A stretch of 64,000 nt of DNA, from the NCBI GenBank assembly GCA_016193315.1, contig JACPSJ010000001.1, positions 155,981 through 219,980 on the forward strand, read 5' to 3'. The notes beneath the pieces were generated by a model. It made no database searches. It was not told the origin of the DNA and saw only the letters and a list, made by a program, of their open reading frames with translations. Below, piece after piece: positions 3,797 to 49,291 of this stretch. Made by a program: the position numbers and the translations under genes. Each line of letters starts with the position of its first letter. The stretch's first letter is position 1. Origin of the DNA: Candidatus Kerfeldbacteria bacterium. GTDB lineage: Bacteria; Patescibacteriota; Patescibacteriia; SBBC01; CAIJZX01.

Positions 3797-4210
3797 TTAC
3801 ATCTGGCCACCCGGTTGGCCACCCATTGGGCCGCCCATTGAACCACCTGATGGCGGCATGTTTGGCATGGTTGGCGCGGCGGGCGCTGACTTCATGCCTC
3901 CTTTGGCGCCGGCCCAGACGATCAAGCCGAGGATACCGAGCACGGCGTGGACGATGGTGATCCAGATCGGCAAGTTGATGATGCCGAACAGGTCTTTGGT
4001 AAACAAGCCGACGACGGCCAGCAGGACGCCGACGATACCAACCCACATGGTGTATCCTTTATGCATTTTCGGCAGGGCCACACCCAAGAAGCCGGCGACA
4101 ATGTGGAAAACGGCGTGGGCGGGCAAGAGTTTGATCGACTCGAAGAAGAAGTTGAGAATCCCAACAACGATCAGGACCCACCCGACGATCATAGCAAATT
4201 GTTTGGTCAC
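3797..4210 (-). CDS. Small multi-pass membrane protein (DUF4383-like) with Gly/Pro/Met-rich C-terminal tail
   Basis: 137 aa, 3-4 predicted TM helices, GGxMGG repeats at C-terminus. Confidence 0.45.
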   Translation of the reverse strand: MTKQFAMIVGWVLIVVGILNFFFESIKLLPAHAVFHIVAGFLGVALPKMHKGYTMWVGIVGVLLAVVGLFTKDLFGIINLPIWITIVHAVLGILGLIVWAGAKGGMKSAPAAPTMPNMPPSGGSMGGPMGGQPGGQM

Positions 4211-4666
4211 ACTCTCACCCCCTTTCGGTCAGTCATAAACGATTTCCACAGGTAGTATAGCATACCTGTTTAATGTTGCTTGACTGAGCGAAATCGGTAA
4301 CCTGACCAGCGGTACAAACGGTCGGTCAGGCGGGTGAATGGGATGGCTAGACCGATGATGGCGGCCAGAAAGAGGACCAACCCCCACGGCCAAACTAGAA
4401 CCAAAGGCTGGCGCCATGGCCACGAACCGATAGCATAGCGGACGAGGACGAGTTGAGTGCACGGTGCGTTGAGTGTTTTTTTGGTATATCACGATGCGAA
4501 GCGTTACTTCTATTCTATGTTGAACTGTGACCCCGAAGCAAATGCGATCTTGCTCGGTCCGACCGCCCGTGATACTGTAGCTCCGCTAGTGTCCCGGCTC
4601 CCCGTTGAAACGACTCGCACCGCTCGTCGTTCACGGGGCAAGCAGCAGATAGTCTGGCACCAAATC

Positions 4667-4739
4667 GCGCCCGTAGCTCAGTGGATAGAGTACATGGCTT
4701 CGGACCATGGGGTCGCAGGTTCGAATCCTGCCGGGCGCG
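4667..4739 (+). tRNA. tRNA-Arg (anticodon TCG)
   Basis: Cloverleaf read by hand: acceptor GCGCCCG/CGGGCGC, D-arm GCTCAGTGGATAGAGT, anticodon loop CTTCGGA, T-arm GCAGG-TTCGAAT-CCTGC. Confidence 0.8.
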
Positions 4740-5380
4740 GTTTGGCGCTAGCTTCGGACCAGAAGGGTCGCGGCCGGTTGCGAAGCAAAGAAGATGAACT
4801 GCTTCATCTTCGTCCGGCCGCGACGGGTGACGCCATGCTTCGAAGGAGCAGGCGGCACCCAGGAACGGGGTTCGAATCCCTCAGGGCGCACCATTGAAAA
4901 TACGTCCCGCGAAGGCGGGACCTTCATTCGGTTGCGACCGAGGGATGAGAAGGGCAGGAGTGAGGCCGAGCAGAGCGACGGCCGAACGTCCGCCGAGCTG
5001 CCAGTGGCAGGTCGGCGCTGACCAGGGTCGAATCCCTCAGGGCGCGCCCGCGCCCGTTTGGATTCGAAGGGGTCGAGACTACAAGCGAAGCCAACTGCTT
5101 GGCTTCGCTCGCGACCGCCGAGACGGGCGAGCCGATGTTCCGAAGGAACAGCGAGACCCAGGCTCGAGCACCCCTGGTCCCGGATCAAGTCTGGGATGGC
5201 GGGAGAGCGCAAGCCCCGGCCTCGAAGAGGCGAATCCCTCAGGGCGCGATTCGACAAATAATTTGCTTTTGGCCCGGTCCGGACGCAGGCCGCGTCCCAT
5301 AAATCAGCCCCGGCTTTCGCCCGGGGTAAACTCCGCGAATTTTGCGGGATTCGAATCCTGCCGAGCGCTGGGACTTGTCT
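4740..5380 (+). repeat. Four tandem ~150-200-nt highly structured tRNA-like repeats; three end in the identical 3' element GAATCCCTCAGGGCGC (one followed by ACCA) and a fourth in GGGATTCGAATCCTGCCGAGCGC; contain nested GC hairpins including loops AACTGCTT
   Basis: Direct reading: repeated T-arm/acceptor-like 3' ends at ~4871-4893, 5027-5050, 5228-5250, 5347-5372; no matching 5' acceptor strands found, so not canonical tRNAs; track ORFs here are spurious. Confidence 0.45.
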
Positions 5381-5869
5381 TTTCCCATGATTTGTGTATA
5401 CTCATGGTGTGCGGTTGTTGATCGGTTGGTCGTCGACTGCATCCGCAACAAAAGGCGTCAAAACAAAACGGAGGACTCTATGTCCGAACACGCGCTGGAA
5501 GTACTGCCGAGCGGCGAAGGAGAGCCGTCGGAGTTTGCGCGCTCGGGCGGCGAGATCCTCGAGCGCGACGATGCCGGCCGCCCGCGACGGTGGCTTTGTG
5601 GCTTTGACAAGGAGGGGCACAAGATCGACCCGCCCGATCTCAACGGCTCACCCGTTCTCCATGAGCTTGATGCTCGAGGAAGATGGGAGGGGCGTCGTTC
5701 CGGACGCGGAGGATTTGGCCGAATATGACACCTGGCCTCACCACTAGCCCCGACTCGACGGAGCCGCGGCTTCGAAACGTCGACCACGAGACTGGGCCCC
5801 TGGCCGCAGTCTCTTTTTTTGAGTGGACGATTCTAGTACAGTTGCCAGAGGCACCGCTTTTTGCTTCAA

Positions 5870-6035
5870 TGCAGGCATCGGGGTGTGGCCTAGCGGTAAG
5901 GCGTCCCGCACCGAATCGGGGATTAGCGCCCCGTAAAATGCCGTCTCTCGGCAAGCTCGAGACGGAATCACGGGGCAAGCAGTTGGAAGCCCGCCTGCTT
6001 CTTGCCCGTCACAACACCATCAAGAGTTTCCCGCA
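5870..6035 (+). ncRNA. tRNA-like element: canonical-looking 5' half (acceptor, D-arm GGCC-TAGCGGTAA-GGC, anticodon-like loop CACCGAA) followed by ~100 nt of extra hairpins instead of a normal T-arm/acceptor; possible pseudo-tRNA or interrupted tRNA
   Basis: Hand folding; contains CAAGCAGTTGG hairpin shared with other repeats in window. Confidence 0.25.
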
Positions 6036-6039
6036 GAGT

Positions 6040-6112
6040 CGGGGCGTGGCGCAGCTGGTAGCGCGCGTGGTTTGGGACCACGAGGTCGCGAGTTCAAATC
6101 TCGCCGCCCCGA
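6040..6112 (+). tRNA. tRNA-Pro (anticodon TGG)
   Basis: Acceptor CGGGGCG/CGCCCCG, D-arm GCGCAGCTGGTAGCGC, anticodon loop TTTGGGA, T-arm GCGAG-TTCAAAT-CTCGC; flanked by a 10-bp extension of the acceptor helix (CCGCAGAGTC/GACTCTGCGG). Confidence 0.8.
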
Positions 6113-6300
6113 CTCTGCGGACAATACGCGATGGGAGCGGGAGGGTCGAGGCCGCGAGCGAAGCGTCAGCGACAGAACTGCTTCTGTCGCGGCGGCTGAG
6201 ACGGGCGTCGCCCTGCTACGCAAGAGCGGCGGCGCTCCGGACGCGGTTCGAGTCTCGGTACCCCGACCATTCGAAACACAATCTAAAAAACACAGACCTC
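6113..6300 (+). repeat. Structured repeat downstream of tRNA-Pro (CAGAACTGCTTCTG hairpin; homologous in inverted orientation to part of 34080-34150)
   Basis: Sequence similarity read by eye between 6160-6225 and reverse complement of 34080-34150. Confidence 0.4.
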
Positions 6301-19979: not shown

Positions 19980-22319
19980 GTGCGAAACCGTCAACCACGC
20001 CTGCCACCTCCAAAGAATGATTCGCGTGGTCGTCCCCCGACCATACTTGTCGTGTTTGGCGCGACAGGTGACTTGATGGCGCGCAAGCTGATTCCCGCTC
20101 TTCGACACATGTTCACTAGTAAAAGCCTGCCCGAACGGGTCACCGTGGTTAGCACATCTCGGCTAGCAATGAATGATGGCGCCTTCCGCCTTCATGTCCG
20201 CGAAGCACTCTTGAAGTCCGGCAACGCACAAGCCGTTGATGAGCAGTTTCTCAACTTGTTTCAGTACCTCCCCGGAGATTTTTCCTCCCCGGAATTTTAC
20301 CAAGCCCTTAAGGTAAAACTTGATCAGGTGGATATTGACTGGGGCGTTTGTACGAACAAACTCTTTTATTTTGCGGTTCCGCCAAATGCGTACGCGGTCC
20401 TGTTCCAAGGACTGGCGCGGGTTCGCCTCAATGAACCGTGCAGCTCGGCCACCGGCTGGACGCGGATCCTCGTTGAGAAACCGTACGGGTCAACGCTGCC
20501 AGAAGCGGAAACAATCAACGCGCTGTTGGAAAAACATTTTCGGCCCGAGCAAGTGTATCGGATCGATCATTACCTAGGCAAGCAAGCCGTTCAGAATATT
20601 CTTTCGTTCCGCTTTTCTAACACCTTTCTTGAGCCGTCATGGAGCCGGGAGTTCGTTGAGCGGGTCGAGGTTCGGATTCACGAAAAGATAACGATCGAAG
20701 GTCGCGGTGCGTTCTACGACCAGGTTGGTGCACTGCTGGACGTCGGACAGAATCACGCGCTTCAGCTCTTGGCGCTGGTGGCCATGGAACACCCATCGAG
20801 CTTGAACGCCAACGTCATTTGGCAAAAGCGCACCGAAATCCTAGAGGCGTTGCGGCCGGTTACTGACTCAGCGGCGCAAACATTTCGGGCGCAGTACGAA
20901 GGGTATCGGGAGCAACCTGGCGTCGCGACAGATTCGACGACCGAAACGTTTTTCCGCGTCACCACTACGCTCGATCATCCCCGCTGGCGCGGCGTTCCGA
21001 TTATTATCGAGGGCGGAAAGAATCTGCCCGCGGACGACAAGCAGGTGATCGTCACGTTCAAACACCCCACCCCATGTCTGTGTCCGCCGGGGCAACACTA
21101 CCAGACCAAGGCCCACTTTCGCTTAGCCCCTAACCCGGGTGTAGCTATTCAGTTTTGGTCGCGCAAGTCAGGCTCTACGACCGAGCTTCAAGAACGGTGG
21201 CTCACGTTTGATTATCCAGCAGATGAGCAACAACGGTACCTGGCTGAGTATGCCCAGTTATTGTCTGAGGCGATCATGGGAAACCAGCTCCTGTTCATTT
21301 CCGGTCGTGAAGCCTTGGCGAGTTGGCGTTTTGTTGATCCGATCCGTCAAGCGTGGAAAACGATGGGGCGACCACAAACGTACGCGCCGCAAACGCTACC
21401 CAACACTCCGACAGTCCCAGCCAAAGAAAAAGTTCAGACGATCGGTATGGTAGGTTTGGGCAAAATGGGGCTCAACTTAAGTTTGCGTTTGGCGGAGAAG
21501 CGGTGGAGCGTGGCTGGATTTGATCCGCAAGCGAAATCTGTTCAAGGCGTCAGTGTCGTTGACTCACTGTCGAGTCTCGTCGAACAACTTCCGTCTCCAA
21601 AGGTGGTCTGGTTGATGGTCCCGCATCAAGTAGTTGATCAAACGCTTTTCGGTAAAGTCGGACTCGCGTCCTTACTCCATAAGGGCGACATCGTGATTGA
21701 TGGTGGTAACTCGTATTACCGAGACTCGATCCGGCGAGCGAAGAAACTAAGCATCAAAGGAATCAAGTTTATTGATGTCGGCGTTTCGGGTGGCCCCGGC
21801 GGAGCTCGTTACGGACCGTCGTTGATGGTTGGCGGACAGCGACAGGATGTCGAGCAGGTCGAGCATCTGTTTCTTGACCTCGCCTTGTCGGACGGTTACC
21901 AATTCTTTCCAGGTCACGGTGCCGGACACTTTGTGAAGATGGTCCACAACGGGATCGAGTATGGCATGATGCAGGCGGTTGCCGAAGGGTTCACGATCCT
22001 CAAAAAATCTTCATTCAAGCTGGACCTTGCCAAGGTTGCCGAGGTCTATAACCACGGGAGCGTCATTGAATCGCGGCTGATGGAGTGGCTACGCCGTGGC
22101 CTCGTACTACACGGCCCGGATTTCAAGGGAGTGAGCGGAACTGTAGCCCATACGGGCGAAGGCGAGTGGACTGTAAAAACCGCGAAAGCCTTAAAAGTCC
22201 AGACTAAGATTATTGAGGCATCGCTCCAATTCCGGAAACTGTCAGCAAAAAAACCTTCATACACTGCAAAAATTCTTTCAGCTCTTCGTGAACAATTTGG
22301 TGGACACGCCTCACGCTAA
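19980..22319 (+). CDS. zwf: Fusion protein: glucose-6-phosphate 1-dehydrogenase (N-terminal ~470 aa) plus 6-phosphogluconate-dehydrogenase-like NAD(P)-binding domain (C-terminal ~300 aa)
   Basis: G6PD motifs GATGDLMARK and RIDHYLGKQ; C-terminal domain GMVGLGKMGLNLSLRL and 6PGDH-like DGGNSYYRD...GVSGG blocks; single 779-aa ORF. Confidence 0.7.
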   Translation: MRNRQPRLPPPKNDSRGRPPTILVVFGATGDLMARKLIPALRHMFTSKSLPERVTVVSTSRLAMNDGAFRLHVREALLKSGNAQAVDEQFLNLFQYLPGDFSSPEFYQALKVKLDQVDIDWGVCTNKLFYFAVPPNAYAVLFQGLARVRLNEPCSSATGWTRILVEKPYGSTLPEAETINALLEKHFRPEQVYRIDHYLGKQAVQNILSFRFSNTFLEPSWSREFVERVEVRIHEKITIEGRGAFYDQVGALLDVGQNHALQLLALVAMEHPSSLNANVIWQKRTEILEALRPVTDSAAQTFRAQYEGYREQPGVATDSTTETFFRVTTTLDHPRWRGVPIIIEGGKNLPADDKQVIVTFKHPTPCLCPPGQHYQTKAHFRLAPNPGVAIQFWSRKSGSTTELQERWLTFDYPADEQQRYLAEYAQLLSEAIMGNQLLFISGREALASWRFVDPIRQAWKTMGRPQTYAPQTLPNTPTVPAKEKVQTIGMVGLGKMGLNLSLRLAEKRWSVAGFDPQAKSVQGVSVVDSLSSLVEQLPSPKVVWLMVPHQVVDQTLFGKVGLASLLHKGDIVIDGGNSYYRDSIRRAKKLSIKGIKFIDVGVSGGPGGARYGPSLMVGGQRQDVEQVEHLFLDLALSDGYQFFPGHGAGHFVKMVHNGIEYGMMQAVAEGFTILKKSSFKLDLAKVAEVYNHGSVIESRLMEWLRRGLVLHGPDFKGVSGTVAHTGEGEWTVKTAKALKVQTKIIEASLQFRKLSAKKPSYTAKILSALREQFGGHASR

Positions 22320-33505: not shown

Positions 33506-34045
33506 TTACTGCTTCCGAAGCGCGACGAACTTTTTTCTGAAGCTGGCTAGTTTCGGAGTGATGACCACCTGACAATACGGCTGGTCGGGGTTCTTGGCGT
33601 AGTAGTCGCGATGGTAGTCTTCGGCCGGGAAAAATTTTTCGGCCGGCACGATGGCGGTGACGATGGATTTGTCAAAGACTTTTTCCCGTTCCAGTCGGCC
33701 TTTGACCGCTTCGGCGATGCGTCGCTGCTCATCATCATGGAAGAAGATAACTGACCGGTACTGTTCACCGACGTCGTGGCCTTGGCGGTTCAGCTGGGTC
33801 GGATCGTGGGTCAGGAAGAAAACCTCAACCAGCTGTTGATAGGAGATTGCGGACGGGTCAAACTCGATCCGGATCGCTTCGGCGTGACCGGTCCGCCCGG
33901 AGCTTACTTGTTCGTATCCCGGATCATCCATCGTGCCGCCGGCGTAGCCGGGCATAACGCTACGCACGCCACGGAGTTCTTTGAACATGGCTTCGGTGCA
34001 CCAGAAGCAGCCGCCCCCAAAGGTCGCAATTTGTACGTTGCCCAT
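33506..34045 (-). CDS. msrA: Peptide methionine sulfoxide reductase MsrA
   Basis: GCFWCTEA active-site motif at N-terminus. Confidence 0.9.
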   Translation of the reverse strand: MGNVQIATFGGGCFWCTEAMFKELRGVRSVMPGYAGGTMDDPGYEQVSSGRTGHAEAIRIEFDPSAISYQQLVEVFFLTHDPTQLNRQGHDVGEQYRSVIFFHDDEQRRIAEAVKGRLEREKVFDKSIVTAIVPAEKFFPAEDYHRDYYAKNPDQPYCQVVITPKLASFRKKFVALRKQ

Positions 34046-34560
34046 CTTTATTCGTGGTTATGTGAAGACCTGGGCGCCGCGGCTCCTCGTCCCTCGCCAA
34101 CTCGGGACTTCGTAGCATCGCGCCGCCCGTCGCGTCGGCCGCGACAGAAGCAACCCCCACCGAATGTTGCAGTTTGTGTGTCGCTCATTTCCAACTCGAG
34201 TTATACAGAGACCGGGGTGCGTCGGCTCCTACGAAGCATCGCCGCACCCGTCTCGGCCGCCGCGAGTCAAGCAGTTGGCTCGCTCTCGCTTTCAGCGAGT
34301 CGGCCTCGACCCAAAAACATGCACCCCCGAAAGTCGCTATACTCCACAGATGATAGAGAATCGATGCAATCGTCTAGGCCTCGCCGTTCCTTCCCCCGCG
34401 GCAAGCTCGGGGTCGAAACATGCTCGGCCCGTCGCGCCCGGACGCGAGTCAAGCAGTTGACTCGCTTTCCTTCGGAACCGGGCGCGACCCAGAAGCCACC
34501 CCCACCGAACGTTGGGATATATATTTGTCGACGCTCCATCGCCGCAGTATAGCATGCTTA
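34046..34560. repeat. ~500-bp intergenic block of three imperfect tandem ~150-bp structured repeats; each ends in ACCCCCACCGAA(T/C)GTTG-like motif and contains GCGAGTCAAGCAGTTG(G/A)CTCGC hairpins; inverted homolog of repeat at 48995-49100 and of 6160-6225
   Basis: Direct comparison: 34365-34460 is approximately the reverse complement of 48995-49100 (GCTCGGGGTCGAAACATGCTCGGCCC shared exactly). Confidence 0.5.
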
Positions 34561-48507: not shown

Positions 48508-48755
48508 ACCTTTGTACTCTACTGCACTGAACTGTAAATGGCCAGGCGCGTATCGTTGAATTGACGGAGACGAGTTTTTGCGCTATTTTCTGCGTGCCGT
48601 GGTGACCATGGTGCCCCGTAAAGGTCGACCGGCGTAGCCGGTTTCCCCACGGGGCAAGTAGCGACAGTACCCCGCATAATTCCTCACTTTGAATGGTAAT
48701 CCGCGGGGCAGACAGGGGCTTGACAACCAGAGGCAAGGTATCTCGTGCTCAGGCC

Positions 48756-48828
48756 GGTGGCTATGGTGTAGCGGTAGCACAGGGGCTTGTGGAGCCCTTA
48801 GCACCGGTTCAAATCCGGTTAGCCACCC
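48756..48828 (+). tRNA. tRNA-His (anticodon GTG) with extra 5' G(-1)
   Basis: Acceptor GGTGGCT/AGCCACC, D-loop TAGCGGTAG, anticodon loop TTGTGGA, T-arm ACCGG-TTCAAAT-CCGGT. Confidence 0.8.
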
Positions 48829-49154
48829 CAAAGGTGGTAACCACCGGCCTGGGTATTGAGCCTCTATCTCGGGGTCGCGATCACTACCGATGGCGACGGG
48901 CGAGGACGGTTGCCGGTGGCAACCGTCCGCAGCCCAGGCCCGAAGGGCGAATCCCGATGGTCACCCCATGCCCTCATAGCGAAATGGGTCTCGGCCGCAT
49001 CGAGCCAGGCGAGATAGCGAGCCAAACTACTTGGCTCGCGGCGGCCGGGACGGGCCGAGCATGTTTCGACCCCGAGCCTGCCGAGGGGGAGGAACGGCGA
49101 GGCCCCGGAACACAGCGACTTCGCCAGATAGGCGGCACGTCTTCCTCTGTCTTT

Positions 49155-49226
49155 GCCCTCGTAGCACAAAGGACAGTGCAAGGGACTTCTAAGCCCGAGA
49201 TGATGGTTCGATTCCATCCGAGGGCA
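49155..49226 (+). tRNA. Possible tRNA-Arg (anticodon TCT) with imperfect anticodon stem (may be pseudo-tRNA)
   Basis: 72 nt: acceptor GCCCTCG/CGAGGGC, D-arm GCAC-AAAGGACA-GTGC, loop CTTCTAA, T-arm GATGG-TTCGATT-CCATC; anticodon stem only 3 WC pairs. Confidence 0.35.
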
Positions 49227-49291
49227 GAGACATTGGCGGACGCATAGGCGTTCTAAGCCTTGAGGTGTAGGTTCGAATCCTACCGGGGGCA
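49227..49291 (+). pseudogene. tRNA 3'-half-like fragment (anticodon-arm AGGC-GTTCTAA-GCCT, T-arm GTAGG-TTCGAAT-CCTAC, acceptor-3' CGGGGGC) without matching 5' half
   Basis: Hand folding; directly abuts previous tRNA-like gene. Confidence 0.3.

What the first reader, a model, noticed from the sequence alone, without database searches (positions are those of the whole stretch)
4740..6300. tRNA gene cluster embedded in a family of ~150-200-nt tRNA-like structured repeats
Downstream of tRNA-Arg(TCG) are four units, three ending in the identical T-arm/acceptor-like 3' element GAATCCCTCAGGGCGC (one with encoded ACCA) and a fourth ending GGGATTCGAATCCTGCCGAGCGC. A tRNA-like 5' half (5876-5930) follows, then tRNA-Pro and another repeat. 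No complementary 5' acceptor strands exist, so they are not standard tRNAs. Each unit is a dense set of nested GC hairpins, several with the loop AACTGCTT. They could be tRNA-derived SINE-like elements, remnants of repeated integrase activity at tRNA 3' ends, or a novel structured RNA family with a tRNA-like 3' handle.
Basis: seen in the sequence. Interest (0 to 1): 0.7.

Follow-up and report, generated by a model that had tools for sequence, protein, structure and literature searches.

The report
Structured mini-insertions carrying replacement gene ends
The "tRNA-like repeats" are copies of an uncatalogued ~95-nt folded element that sits after a GG inside tRNA, msrA and dus genes of candidate-phyla-radiation bacteria, always beside a spare copy of the gene part it displaced, so the gene still works; it looks like a new type of tiny selfish insertion.

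Summary
The sequence features are real, but the "tRNA-like 3' handle" is not part of the repeat. The repeat is a ~95-120-nt core (E). It has a three-way junction (P1; optional P2; P3 with loop AACUGCUU) followed by a bulged hairpin P4, and is bounded GG|GUC...C(A/C)GG. A covariance model finds 8 copies in the window and 16 more, almost all in Patescibacteria loci. It finds none in about 1 Mb of control loci, none in viral contigs, and no Rfam family matches. Thirteen of 19 P1/P3 pairs covary. The window comes from a Candidatus Kerfeldbacteria genome.

E always lies beside fragments of the neighbouring gene. These are tRNA pieces here, msrA 5' ends at 34046-34540 (minus strand), and dus 5' ends in relatives. 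Deleting E6 and a 220-nt insert in silico rebuilds one old tRNA-Pro spanning 5879-6269. Related msrA loci carry no insertion. The duplicated gene ends are host/donor hybrids, and the reading frame through E stops on the next start codon (ATGA).

Best reading (0.55): miniature non-autonomous insertion cassettes that enter conserved genes by recombination within a carried copy of the gene end. The mobilising machinery and E's exact role are unknown. This has not been described in Rfam or in the literature searched.

The parts
4666..4740 (+). Functional tRNA-Arg(TCG); no CCA encoded.
   Evidence: ARAGORN; Rfam 70.6 bits.
4741..4764 (+). Short trailer (GTTTGGCGCT) followed by a displaced tRNA-Arg fragment (AGCTTCGGACCAGAA: anticodon loop to variable region) that ends at the GG where E1 begins.
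   Evidence: Read. The fragment matches the tRNA-Arg of related locus L144 better than the window's own gene.
4765..4863 (+). E1: full core (P1, P2, P3 with loop AACTGCTT, P4), bounded by GG|GTC...CCCAGG.
   Evidence: Covariance model R1, 60.4 bits, E = 2.5e-11; fold.
4864..4893 (+). Displaced tRNA-Arg T-arm and acceptor 3' strand plus ACCA (AACGGGGTTCGAATCCCTCAGGGCGCACCA).
   Evidence: Joined to the 5' part of tRNA-Arg with E1 removed, ARAGORN calls a tRNA-Arg.
4952..5026 (+). Reduced E-like unit of two hairpins with no P3, ending ...GACCAGG directly before the next T-loop fragment.
   Evidence: Fold (z = -3.6 for 4890-5018). Not detected by R1 at E <= 1, so the assignment is by eye.
5027..5045 (+). 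Second displaced T-loop/acceptor fragment (GTCGAATCCCTCAGGGCGC).
   Evidence: Exact repeat.
5070..5162 (+). E3: core without P2 and with a weakened P1; preceded by the degenerate anticodon-loop fragment GGATTCGAAGG.
   Evidence: R1, 41.2 bits, E = 6e-7.
5231..5247 (+). Third displaced T-loop/acceptor fragment (CGAATCCCTCAGGGCGC).
5346..5368 (+). Fourth displaced fragment (GGGATTCGAATCCTGCCGAGCGC). It is the one closest to the present tRNA-Arg 3' end, and the unit 5248-5345 before it has no E.
   Evidence: that unit's fold is not unusual (z = -0.45).
5879..5909 (+). 5' half of an old tRNA-Pro gene (acceptor CGGGGTG, D arm, 5' strand of the anticodon stem).
   Evidence: Rebuilds a complete tRNA-Pro(TGG) with 6128-6144 and 6241-6269 once the inserts are removed (ARAGORN).
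5910..6127 (+). About 220-nt insert in the anticodon loop of the old tRNA-Pro. It contains a further tRNA-Pro 5' scrap (5916-5929), 'motif 2' (5929-5991), and the functional tRNA-Pro (6040-6113) flanked by the inverted repeat CCGCAGAG (6031-6038) / CTCTGCGG (6113-6120).
6128..6144 (+). Old tRNA-Pro anticodon loop, 3' stem strand and start of the variable region (..TGGGAGCGGGAGG).
6143..6240 (+). E6: full core, a clean insertion in the variable region of the old tRNA-Pro.
   Evidence: R1, 52.9 bits, E = 1.3e-9. Removing 6144/6145 to 6238-6241 restores a tRNA.
6241..6269 (+). Old tRNA-Pro T arm and acceptor 3' strand TACCCCG plus ACCA.
33506..34045 (-). Intact msrA gene, the target gene of a second array.
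   Evidence: Pfam PMSR, E = 4.6e-66; 100% identical to a Candidatus Kerfeldbacteria MsrA.
34069..34202 (-). msrA 5' fragment F7 (ATG at 34188) followed by the 5'-truncated E7. Its reading frame stops at a TAA 2 nt before the msrA ATG.
   Evidence: R1, 29.6 bits; reading frames.
34212..34312 (-). E8: full core, preceded by msrA fragment F8 (34313-34340, ..ATFGGACFW). The frame through E8 ends in a TGA that overlaps the ATG of F7 (ATGA at 34188-34185).
   Evidence: R1, 61.3 bits.
34373..34490 (-). E9: full core with a long P4, preceded by msrA fragment F9 (34491-34539, MERRQIYIPTFGGGGFW) that keeps the native promoter-like TGCTATACT.
   Evidence: R1, 54.3 bits; comparison with the empty loci L160 and L162.
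48757..48830 (+). Functional tRNA-His.
48857..48968 (+). Displaced tRNA-His 3' part (TGAGCCTCTATCTCGG ... GGGCGAATCCCGATGGTCACCCCA) interrupted after GG by the reduced E10 (48872-48938).
   Evidence: R1, 15.4 bits, weak; fold z = -4.7. The fragment resembles the L144 and L084 tRNA-His more than the window's own.
48986..49108 (+). E11: full core with variant loop AAACTACTT. Its P4 is nearly identical to that of E9.
   Evidence: R1, 38.2 bits.
49247..49291 (+). Displaced 3' two-thirds of a tRNA-Arg(TCT), lying directly after the functional tRNA-Arg(TCT) (49154-49227). No E is present.
   Evidence: matches L144's tRNA-Arg(TCT) at 39 of 45 positions against 34 of 45 for the window's own gene.

Best explanation
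E is the conserved folded core of a family of miniature, non-autonomous insertion cassettes (about 100-200 nt) that live in Patescibacteria. A cassette consists of E plus a short spacer plus a copy of the part of the target gene that the insertion displaces. For protein genes and some tRNAs this is the 5' end with its start codon; for other tRNAs it is the 3' end.

The cassette enters a highly conserved gene (tRNA, msrA, dus) right after a GG. It does so by recombination between its own gene-end copy and the chromosomal one, a Campbell-type or 'ends-in' event. This leaves [old gene end]-E-spacer-[new gene end + rest of gene], so the gene stays functional. The cost is minimised in two ways: ribosomes read from the old start through E and terminate on the new start codon, and tRNA processing trims E away.

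Repeated events stack units into arrays, and resident copies then decay. E itself is inferred to be the cis-acting module needed for spread, folding on the sense strand as RNA or single-stranded DNA and recognised by an unidentified trans-acting function.

Shown: the structure, the insertion anatomy, the empty sites, the hybrid gene ends, and the stop/start overlap. Inferred: mobility as a cassette, the recombination route, and the role of E.
For: (1) E is a discrete, conserved structure. Model R1 finds 24 copies with E-values from 1e-5 to 1e-18, plus one weak copy. Controls are clean: about 1.09 Mb of unrelated loci give hits only in Patescibacteria-type loci. 13 of 19 P1/P3 pairs show compensatory changes, 86% of cells are paired, and 0 of 500 shuffles reach this. 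All 18 P4 regions fold as hairpins. E has 61-72% GC in hosts of 33-58% GC.

(2) E is an insertion. Removing E6 and a 220-nt insert rebuilds a complete tRNA-Pro. msrA loci of three other Kerfeldbacteria are empty and keep the same native TGCTAyACT-N6-7-ATG as the leftmost window copy. One MAG (JACQPY) has E at tRNA-Pro (L105) but not at msrA (L158).

(3) E is always preceded by a fragment of the adjacent gene ending in GG: tRNA D stem, D loop, anticodon loop, variable loop or T stem; msrA ..CFW; dus ..APMEG.

(4) The gene-end copies are hybrids. In dus arrays of two different hosts, E, the spacer and ATGAACAATTTTTGG are shared, the middle part is host-specific, and the copy abutting E always reads CCGATGGA whereas the gene copy reads CCAATGGA.

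(5) The frame through E ends in ATGA on the next start codon in L094 (twice), L146 and window E8 to F7, and 2 nt before the msrA ATG.

(6) The msrA fragments differ from the gene mostly at third codon positions (read), as expected if they diverged while coding.

(7) Displaced tRNA fragments resemble the orthologues of related genomes more than the present genes.

(8) Decayed, truncated and reduced copies sit beside intact ones.

(9) No integrase, reverse transcriptase or transposase was found in the window or beside E in the other loci examined.
Against: No mobilising enzyme or autonomous copy was found. No two copies are near-identical, so recent movement is not shown. Three metagenome samples carry an identical msrA array with no polymorphism. 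The G-U versus A-C count (7 vs 9) gives no strand or RNA signal. Homology arms of 10-60 nt are short for RecA-type recombination. The tRNA-Pro case (a new gene nested in the old anticodon loop, with E in the variable loop) needs two events or a composite cassette. Some displaced gene ends occur without E (49247-49291; L096; L163). Duplication of gene ends and E may therefore be separable phenomena. Only about 24 copies were studied, some of them related by descent.
Confidence: 0.55

Rival explanations
1. E is a host-serving cis-acting RNA domain, for example an insulator or processing module that keeps the dead gene fragment from mispairing with the live tRNA or mRNA, or a regulatory or protein-binding leader. 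The gene-end duplications would come from an unrelated process such as gene replacement by transformation.
For: E is always co-oriented with, and inside the transcription unit of, its host gene. Terminal loops on the sense strand are mostly GNA or GNRA types, and tandem G-A loops and a conserved AU bulge look like protein-binding RNA features. Displaced gene ends also occur without E (49247-49291; L096). In the window, 'motif 2' upstream of three tRNAs is complementary to the loop of the E downstream of each.
Against: Orthologous msrA genes work without E. Copies are truncated or decayed in place (E7, E9 3' end, E3 P1), which is not expected for a needed domain. The host genes are unrelated in function. 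The loop complement is not enriched near E in other loci (7 of 21 loci within 400 nt).
Confidence: 0.15
2. E is an RNA-level mobile element: an intron-like or self-cleaving ribozyme, or a retro-element copied from transcripts. CCA-tailed tRNA fragments would mark cDNA copies of mature RNA.
For: Displaced fragments at 4890-4893 and 6267-6269 carry CCA, whereas the functional tRNA-Arg and tRNA-Pro genes do not. E inserts at tRNA positions (D loop, variable loop, anticodon loop) like archaeal or group I introns. About half of the copies start GU and end AG|G. Patescibacteria are rich in tRNA introns (PMC13011429).
Against: No Rfam intron or ribozyme model matches, even at E <= 10. The E-containing gene copies are truncated fragments next to an intact copy, so splicing is unnecessary. 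Ribosomes are set up to read through E. Spacers carry unprocessed trailer- and promoter-like DNA (GTTTGG after two acceptor ends; TATAAC before ATG). Relatives such as L077 and L144 encode CCA in the genome. No reverse transcriptase was found nearby.
Confidence: 0.1
3. E is the end or guide-RNA scaffold of an IS200/IS605-like single-strand transposon derivative (PATE-like), or of an RNA-guided homing system. The gene fragment 5' of E would act as a guide, and the recoded new gene end would protect the filled allele.
For: E has two sub-terminal hairpin domains bounded by the same dinucleotide (GG|...GG|). Insertion is strictly 3' of GG with no fixed-length target duplication. The element is non-autonomous. 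GCGAAGC mini-hairpins are very stable in DNA (my own knowledge). The gene copy next to E differs from the live copy close to the junction (CCG vs CCA).
Against: No TnpA, TnpB or IscB was seen. The Rfam HEARO and IS605-orfB models do not match. Stems differ greatly between copies in one genome, which is unexpected for one transposase. Peel-and-paste transposition does not explain the carried gene ends or the hybrid fragments.
Confidence: 0.1
4. The units are scars of ordinary integrase-mediated genomic islands that integrated at tRNA and gene ends and were later deleted. E would be an att-adjacent remnant.
For: Direct repeats of tRNA 3' ends downstream of tRNA genes are the classic signature of such islands.
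Against: Units are uniformly about 100-200 nt, with E intact and nothing else, at about 20 sites in many genomes. No integrase or island genes occur at any site. The same architecture with stop/start overlap occurs inside the 5' ends of protein genes. E is absent from IMG/VR viral contigs.
Confidence: 0.07

Closest known systems
Rickettsia palindromic elements (RPE) and similar small structured selfish repeats (yeast mitochondrial GC clusters, MITE/REP-type repeats)
   Same: Short (about 100-150 nt), non-coding, strongly folding and non-autonomous. Found in reduced genomes, inserted inside conserved protein and RNA genes, and tolerated because the host product survives. (RPE properties are from my own knowledge; they are mentioned in PMC1458961 and PMC10969869.)
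   Different: An RPE becomes an in-frame part of the host protein. E instead arrives with a replacement copy of the displaced gene end and a stop/start overlap. E has a three-way junction plus hairpin whose stems covary rather than a conserved palindrome, with no terminal inverted repeats of fixed sequence and no fixed target duplication.
Integrative elements that target tRNA or gene ends and carry the displaced segment in attP (phages, genomic islands, tycheposons)
   Same: The target gene is restored by element-borne sequence. The displaced end remains as a direct repeat, and successive events give tandem arrays of partial tRNAs.
   Different: Those elements are kilobases long and encode an integrase. 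These units are 100-200 nt, have no gene, and their junctions look like homologous crossovers within the gene-end copy.
IS200/IS605 family and its PATE derivatives; integron attC sites
   Same: Recognition would be by folded single-strand structure rather than by sequence, insertion is 3' of a short motif, and the derivatives are non-autonomous.
   Different: No HUH transposase or IntI was seen. The attC core RYYYAAC/GTTRRRY is absent. Neither system carries target gene ends.
Group I introns in Patescibacteria tRNA genes / homing introns and inteins
   Same: Same phylum, same kind of target (conserved sites of tRNA and conserved proteins), and spread would rely on conserved flanks.
   Different: E is far too small and matches no intron model. 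It is not removed from a continuous gene; a second intact gene end sits beside it.

Membership tests
tRNA (Rfam RF00005) or tRNA with intron | Cloverleaf with paired acceptor stem, detected by ARAGORN or the Rfam tRNA model. | tested here: not met
   Only four tRNAs are called in the window, and none of the units is called. One unit becomes a tRNA only after two inserts are deleted in silico, and that copy is redundant with the intact tRNA-Pro nested inside it.
tmRNA (including permuted two-piece forms) | tRNA-like domain plus tag reading frame, detected by ARAGORN or the Rfam tmRNA clan. | tested here: not met
   No tmRNA was found.
Any Rfam 15 family (riboswitches, ribozymes, introns, HEARO/IS605 RNAs, GOLLD/ROOL, Y-RNA-like) | Score at or above the family's gathering threshold. 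| tested here: not met
   Only tRNA passes. The best sub-threshold hit on E is gyrA RNA at 20 bits against a threshold of 45.
MITE | Terminal inverted repeats of conserved sequence, matching a transposase-bearing parent. | tested here: not met
   The P1 arms differ between copies while staying complementary. No parent IS was found.
MITE | Target-site duplication of fixed short length. | tested here: not met
   The flanking repeats are gene fragments of 10-70 nt and of diverged sequence.
IS200/IS605-derived PATE | Sub-terminal hairpins at both ends and insertion 3' of a specific short motif without duplication. | tested here: inconclusive
   E has two hairpin domains bounded by GG| on both sides, but the carried gene ends are not explained.
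IS200/IS605-derived PATE | A cognate Y1 HUH transposase in the same genome. | not testable with these tools
   Only 64 kb of the 857-kb contig was available, and none was seen in it.
Integrase-mediated integrative element | Tyrosine or serine recombinase gene within the element. | tested here: not met
   No such Pfam hit among the annotated window ORFs or the ORFs next to E in L143 and L147.
Integrase-mediated integrative element | Direct repeats of the target gene end flanking the insert, with the gene restored. | tested here: met
Integron attC | R''/R' core sites RYYYAAC ... GTTRRRY at the base of the hairpin. | tested here: not met
   The base of P1 is GUC(GA/GC)G...C(GA/GC)GAC in all copies.
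Group I intron | Rfam RF00028 match, with a U before the 5' splice site. | tested here: not met
   No match. The upstream base is always G.
SINE-like retro-element | Derived from a complete tRNA 5' region, with a reverse-transcriptase partner and a 3' tail. | tested here: not met
   The tRNA parts are partial target fragments on both sides of E. The same core occurs with msrA and dus fragments. No reverse transcriptase was found.

The most novel reading that the evidence does not exclude
E is the functional RNA (or single-stranded DNA) module of a previously unknown homing system in Patescibacteria. This would be a gene-less 'gene-end replacement cassette' whose folded core recruits a host or distant enzyme (nuclease, recombinase or reverse transcriptase). 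It might use the adjoining gene fragment as a guide, so that it copies itself into the most conserved sites of tRNA and protein genes while recoding and restoring the target.
Probability: 0.2. Interest if true: 0.9.

Novelty: new variant of a known kind. Interest (0 to 1): 0.72.

Why it matters
If correct, this is a new way for selfish DNA to live inside essential, highly conserved genes of very small genomes. It does not splice out (intron or intein) and does not become part of the product (RPE). It brings its own spare gene end and a translational hand-over instead.

It explains why tRNA loci of Kerfeldbacteria are littered with partial tRNAs that confuse annotation. It adds a well-supported structured motif that is missing from Rfam. 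It also offers a tractable system: a 95-nt core, known targets, and both empty and filled alleles. That system could be used to look for the recombination or targeting activity that moves it, which may be of interest for site-specific insertion tools. Finally, it shows that functional tRNA genes in these bacteria have been overwritten repeatedly by incoming copies.

Tried and rejected
1. Ordinary tRNA, tmRNA or a known RNA family: rejected by ARAGORN and Rfam at gathering and at E <= 10.

2. Phage origin: three IMG/VR scans gave only chance matches or nothing.

My first stem filter also missed three real loci, which the covariance model recovered later.

4. Two protein searches with peptides translated through E found nothing because no 5-residue words were shared. 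A census of targets through predicted ORFs therefore failed.

5. G-U versus A-C strand test: uninformative, 7 vs 9.

6. Promoter and terminator scans gave nothing decisive.

7. Population polymorphism of the msrA array: none in three samples.

8. Loop-loop pairing between E and upstream 'motif 2': seen at all three tRNA loci of the window, including one compensatory change, but not enriched in other loci. It is left as unexplained.

9. Hammerhead, HDV-like, K-turn/box C/D and archaeal bulge-helix-bulge readings were considered by eye and dropped because the defining core sequences or bulges are absent. These rejections are inference only.

10. The GC-rich region upstream of E in L147 is not a known RNA.

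11. Literature searches found no description of such an element.
Full report
**Source and context**

The window is chromosomal DNA of a candidate-phyla-radiation bacterium. Its MsrA (33506-34045, minus strand) is 100% identical to a protein named 'Candidatus Kerfeldbacteria bacterium' on an 857-kb contig. The other genes are ordinary housekeeping genes: a G6PD/6PGD fusion, a histidine kinase, thioredoxins, helicases and others. No integrase, transposase, reverse transcriptase or RNA-guided nuclease was found among about 40 ORFs scanned.

**Checking the observation**

- ARAGORN and Rfam call four tRNAs: Arg-TCG 4666-4740, Pro-TGG 6040-6113, His 48757-48830 and Arg-TCT 49154-49227. They call nothing else, even at E <= 10.
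- The 16-mer GAATCCCTCAGGGCGC is present exactly three times (4874, 5030, 5232). The tRNA-Arg-like end GGGATTCGAATCCTGCCGAGCGC is present once (5346).
- AACTGCTT occurs 8 times against 1.3 expected.
What needed correcting is which parts belong together.

**The repeat proper (E)**

Aligning the copies shows a core that does not include the tRNA-like ends. Its layout is:

- GG|GUC-P1 (about 10-11 bp, usually with a tandem G-A/A-G or G-C/C-G step);
- an optional small hairpin P2 (often GCGAAGC);
- P3 (7 bp plus two A-U pairs closing a CUGC loop, which gives 'AACUGCUU');
- the P1 3' strand ending GAC;
- GGG-P4, a long hairpin with a conserved 5' AU bulge before a G-C pair, often with a second G-A/A-G loop and GNA/GNRA-type end loops;
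- CC(A/C)GG at the 3' end.

A covariance model built from seven metagenomic copies (R1) finds eight copies in the window:

| Copy | Coordinates | Strand | Bits |
|---|---|---|---|
| E1 | 4765-4863 | + | 60 |
| E3 | 5070-5162 | + | 41 |
| E6 | 6143-6240 | + | 53 |
| E10 (reduced) | 48872-48938 | + | 15 |
| E11 | 48986-49086 (the core runs on to 49108) | + | 38 |
| E9 | 34396-34490 (the core runs on to 34373) | - | 54 |
| E8 | 34212-34312 | - | 61 |
| E7 (5'-truncated) | 34069-34202 | - | 30 |

It finds sixteen more copies in L077, L084 (two), L094 (two), L096, L105, L140, L143, L144 (two), L146, L147, L150, L153 and L154.

About 1.09 Mb of control loci had matched my loose DNA pattern by chance (Rhodobacteraceae, Streptomyces, phages and others). 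The model hits nothing among them outside loci that are labelled Patescibacteria/Kerfeldbacteria or are syntenic with such loci.

Two specific patterns find nothing in IMG/VR, and a looser one gives only chance matches.

I built a gap-free block alignment of P1 and P3 from 18 copies, with blocks taken at fixed offsets from sequence anchors rather than fitted to pairing. In it, 13 of 19 pairs show changes on both sides, 86% of cells pair, and no shuffle out of 500 and no slid register comes close. The copies are related, so this is strong support rather than proof.

Every P4 folds as a hairpin despite very different sequences. E is 61-72% GC in hosts from 33 to 58% GC.

G-U and A-C counts are equal (7 and 9), so that test does not say which strand folds. 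The GNA/GNRA loops lie on the gene-sense strand, which points to sense RNA or sense single-stranded DNA. That is an inference.

**What flanks E**

This is the key point. E is always preceded by a diverged copy of part of the neighbouring gene, ending in GG.

*msrA.* Upstream of msrA (minus strand) the order is as follows:

- native promoter-like TGCTATACT;
- F9 (MERRQIYIPTFGGGGFW), then E9, then a spacer;
- F8 (..ATFGGACFW), then E8, then a spacer;
- F7 (MSDTQTATFGGGCF), then the truncated E7, then a spacer;
- intact msrA (MGNVQIATFGGGCFWC...).

The fragments stop at the W codon of the catalytic GCFWC motif. They differ from the gene mainly at third codon positions.

*dus.* In L094 (Kerfeldbacteria) and L146 the same arrangement is built on the first 21 codons of the tRNA-dihydrouridine synthase gene, ending ..LAPMEG.

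*tRNA loci.* The fragment before E ends in one of several places:

- the D stem (tRNA-His GGTGGCTATGG| in L144 and L084);
- the D loop (..CTCAGTTGG| in L150 and L077);
- the anticodon loop (L105);
- the variable region (window E1, E3, E6; L153; L144b);
- the T stem (window E10).

E is followed by the continuation of that tRNA. An intact copy of the tRNA lies either downstream ('5' type') or upstream ('3' type', as in the window).

**E is an insertion**

1. Deleting 5908-6127 and E6 (6144/6145 to 6238-6241) in silico makes ARAGORN call a complete tRNA-Pro(TGG) running from 5879 to 6269. E6 sits cleanly in its variable region. The functional tRNA-Pro, flanked by the inverted repeat CCGCAGAG/CTCTGCGG, lies inside a 220-nt insert in the old anticodon loop.
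2. Likewise, the 5' part of tRNA-Arg plus the fragments on either side of E1 gives a tRNA-Arg once E1 is removed.
3. msrA loci of three other Kerfeldbacteria (L158, L160, L162) have no E. Two of them (L160, L162) show the TGCTAyACT-N6-7-ATG seen in front of the leftmost window fragment, which is therefore the native 5' end.
4. The MAG JACQPY has E at tRNA-Pro (L105) but an empty msrA site (L158).

**How the units are put together**

Five dus 5' regions were aligned. E, the spacer and the first 15 nt of the new copy (ATGAACAATTTTTGG) are shared between L094 (54% GC) and L146 (51% GC). The middle of each copy is host-specific..CCACGGCCAATCCTGGCGCT.. in L094 and ..TAAAAAAACC.. in L146. The last codons differ consistently: CCGATGGA when followed by E, and CCAATGGA when followed by the gene body.

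So the old copy is host 5' part plus donor 3' part, and the new copy is donor 5' part plus host 3' part. This is what a single crossover between a [gene end - E - spacer] circle and the chromosome would leave. The equivalent 'ends-in' event with a linear piece gives the same product. The pattern argues against a fixed cut-and-paste junction.

The same scheme accounts for all three layouts: a circle carrying x-E-y-spacer, crossing over in x or in y. These are protein genes, 5'-type tRNAs and 3'-type tRNAs.

The displaced tRNA pieces in the window resemble the tRNA-Arg, tRNA-His and tRNA-Arg(TCT) of the related loci L144 and L084 more than the window's present genes. The counts are 36 vs 34 of 42, 30-31 vs 24 of 39, and 39 vs 34 of 45. 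Whole or partial tRNA genes have therefore been overwritten. The direction (native versus incoming) cannot be polarised with the data in hand.

**Cost control**

In every protein-gene unit the reading frame that starts at the old ATG runs through E without a stop and then terminates on or just before the next start codon. The stop is a TGA overlapping the ATG (ATGA) in L094 (twice), in L146 and at window E8 to F7. It is a TAA 2 nt before the msrA ATG for F7. L094b and L146 share ancestry, so these are about four independent cases.

By a rough estimate (inference), the chance of an ATGA overlap after an open frame of 45-70 codons is a few percent per case. I read this as termination-reinitiation that melts E and delivers ribosomes to the restored gene.

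At tRNA loci, normal 5' and 3' processing would discard E.

**Decay**

E7 has lost its 5' half through a TGCTTCTG microhomology between msrA and the P3 loop. The 3' end of E9 is eroded, and E3 has a weak P1. Reduced two-hairpin forms exist (4952-5026, 48872-48938, and one in L077). This fits selection on E during spread rather than at its resting place.

**Interpretation**

The best-supported reading is a family of gene-less insertion cassettes that carry a replacement gene end and a conserved folded core (confidence 0.55). The following remain inferred:

- that the cassette moves as a unit;
- that recombination within the carried gene end is the entry route (host recombination after DNA uptake, or an unknown enzyme);
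- that E is the cis-acting element for a step such as excision, circle formation, uptake, priming or targeting.

The rivals and their weights are a host-serving processing or insulator RNA (0.15), an RNA-level intron, ribozyme or retro-element (0.10), an IS200/IS605-type or guide-RNA scaffold (0.10), and scars of classical islands (0.07).

**Comparison with known systems**

The closest analogues in behaviour are of two kinds. One is Rickettsia palindromic elements and other small structured selfish repeats. The other is integrative elements that restore their tRNA or gene target from attP. E differs from the first kind by bringing a spare gene end and a stop/start hand-over. It differs from the second by being 100-200 nt long with no recombinase.

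E fails the tests I could run for tRNA, tmRNA, any Rfam family, MITE, integron attC, group I intron and SINE-like elements. The PATE comparison is inconclusive.

Rfam 15 and the literature searches turned up no description. That includes a 2026 survey of tRNA introns in Patescibacteria, PMC13011429.

**Verdict**

The finding is real and more interesting than a tRNA oddity. Mechanistic confidence is moderate, and the mobilising activity is unknown.

Noticed in passing
window 4600-4654, 5929-5991, 48614-48670 (+): A second structured motif (CCCCGU-AAA-hairpin-UCACGGGGCAAG(C/U)AG) lies upstream of tRNA-Arg, tRNA-Pro and tRNA-His. Its AAGCAG(UU) or AAGUAG is complementary to the P3 loop of the E downstream of the same tRNA, including the CUACUU variant at tRNA-His. 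The complement is not enriched near E in other loci (7 of 21).
   Followed up: partly
window 6031-6120; L105 700-800; L140 4976-5100 (-): Functional tRNA genes are nested inside the anticodon loop of an older tRNA-like gene. They are flanked by 8-17-bp inverted repeats that extend the old anticodon stem, giving a 'tRNA within a tRNA'.
   Followed up: partly
window 49247-49291 (+); L096 7095-7130; L144 12200-12300 (-): Displaced tRNA fragments next to intact tRNA genes also occur without any E. Examples are the Arg-TCT 3' part, a tRNA-Leu 5' part, and a tRNA-His 3' part with a short T-loop insert. Gene-end duplication is therefore more general than E in these genomes.
   Followed up: partly
L163 2900-3080: In another metagenomic msrA locus, directly downstream of archease and RtcB genes, a duplicated msrA piece (GGCTTCTGGTGCACCGA) sits upstream of the real start with no E between them. 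It may be a footprint or a decayed unit.
   Followed up: no
L094 3178 and 3345; L146 7613: The conserved AUG in the P4 bulge of E is in frame, with no stop, with the next dus start codon in all three dus units (for example MLRRSRRAPEGFIVMSKDFW..). It is not in frame in the msrA units. This may be coincidence or an alternative start.
   Followed up: partly
L140 about 5150-5200 (-), L144 about 4820-4850 (-), L150 about 3800-3830 (+): A palindromic motif, (A)ATCGGGATCCCGAT, recurs near tRNA genes in several of the Patescibacteria loci. It may be another small repeat family.
   Followed up: no
L084, L096 (genome contigs titles): Two E-bearing contigs are titled 'uncultured Gammaproteobacteria'. 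L084 shares the tRNA-Arg(TCT)/tRNA-His arrangement and the E insertion site with the Kerfeldbacteria-like locus L144. The taxonomic labels are probably wrong.
   Followed up: no
window 19980-22319 (+): A single 779-aa ORF combines glucose-6-phosphate dehydrogenase and 6-phosphogluconate dehydrogenase domains. This is a fusion of two consecutive pentose-phosphate enzymes.
   Followed up: no
window 5481-5747 (+): An 88-aa ORF with no Pfam match has a good sigma-70-like promoter (TTGTCT-16-TATACT at 5375-5402). It sits between the tRNA-Arg array and the old tRNA-Pro.
   Followed up: no
L147 1990-2283 (+): About 300 nt of GC-rich, strongly folding sequence in a mixed-GC locus lies directly upstream of E. 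It matches no Rfam family (fold z = -3.3) and may be another structured RNA or insert.
   Followed up: partly
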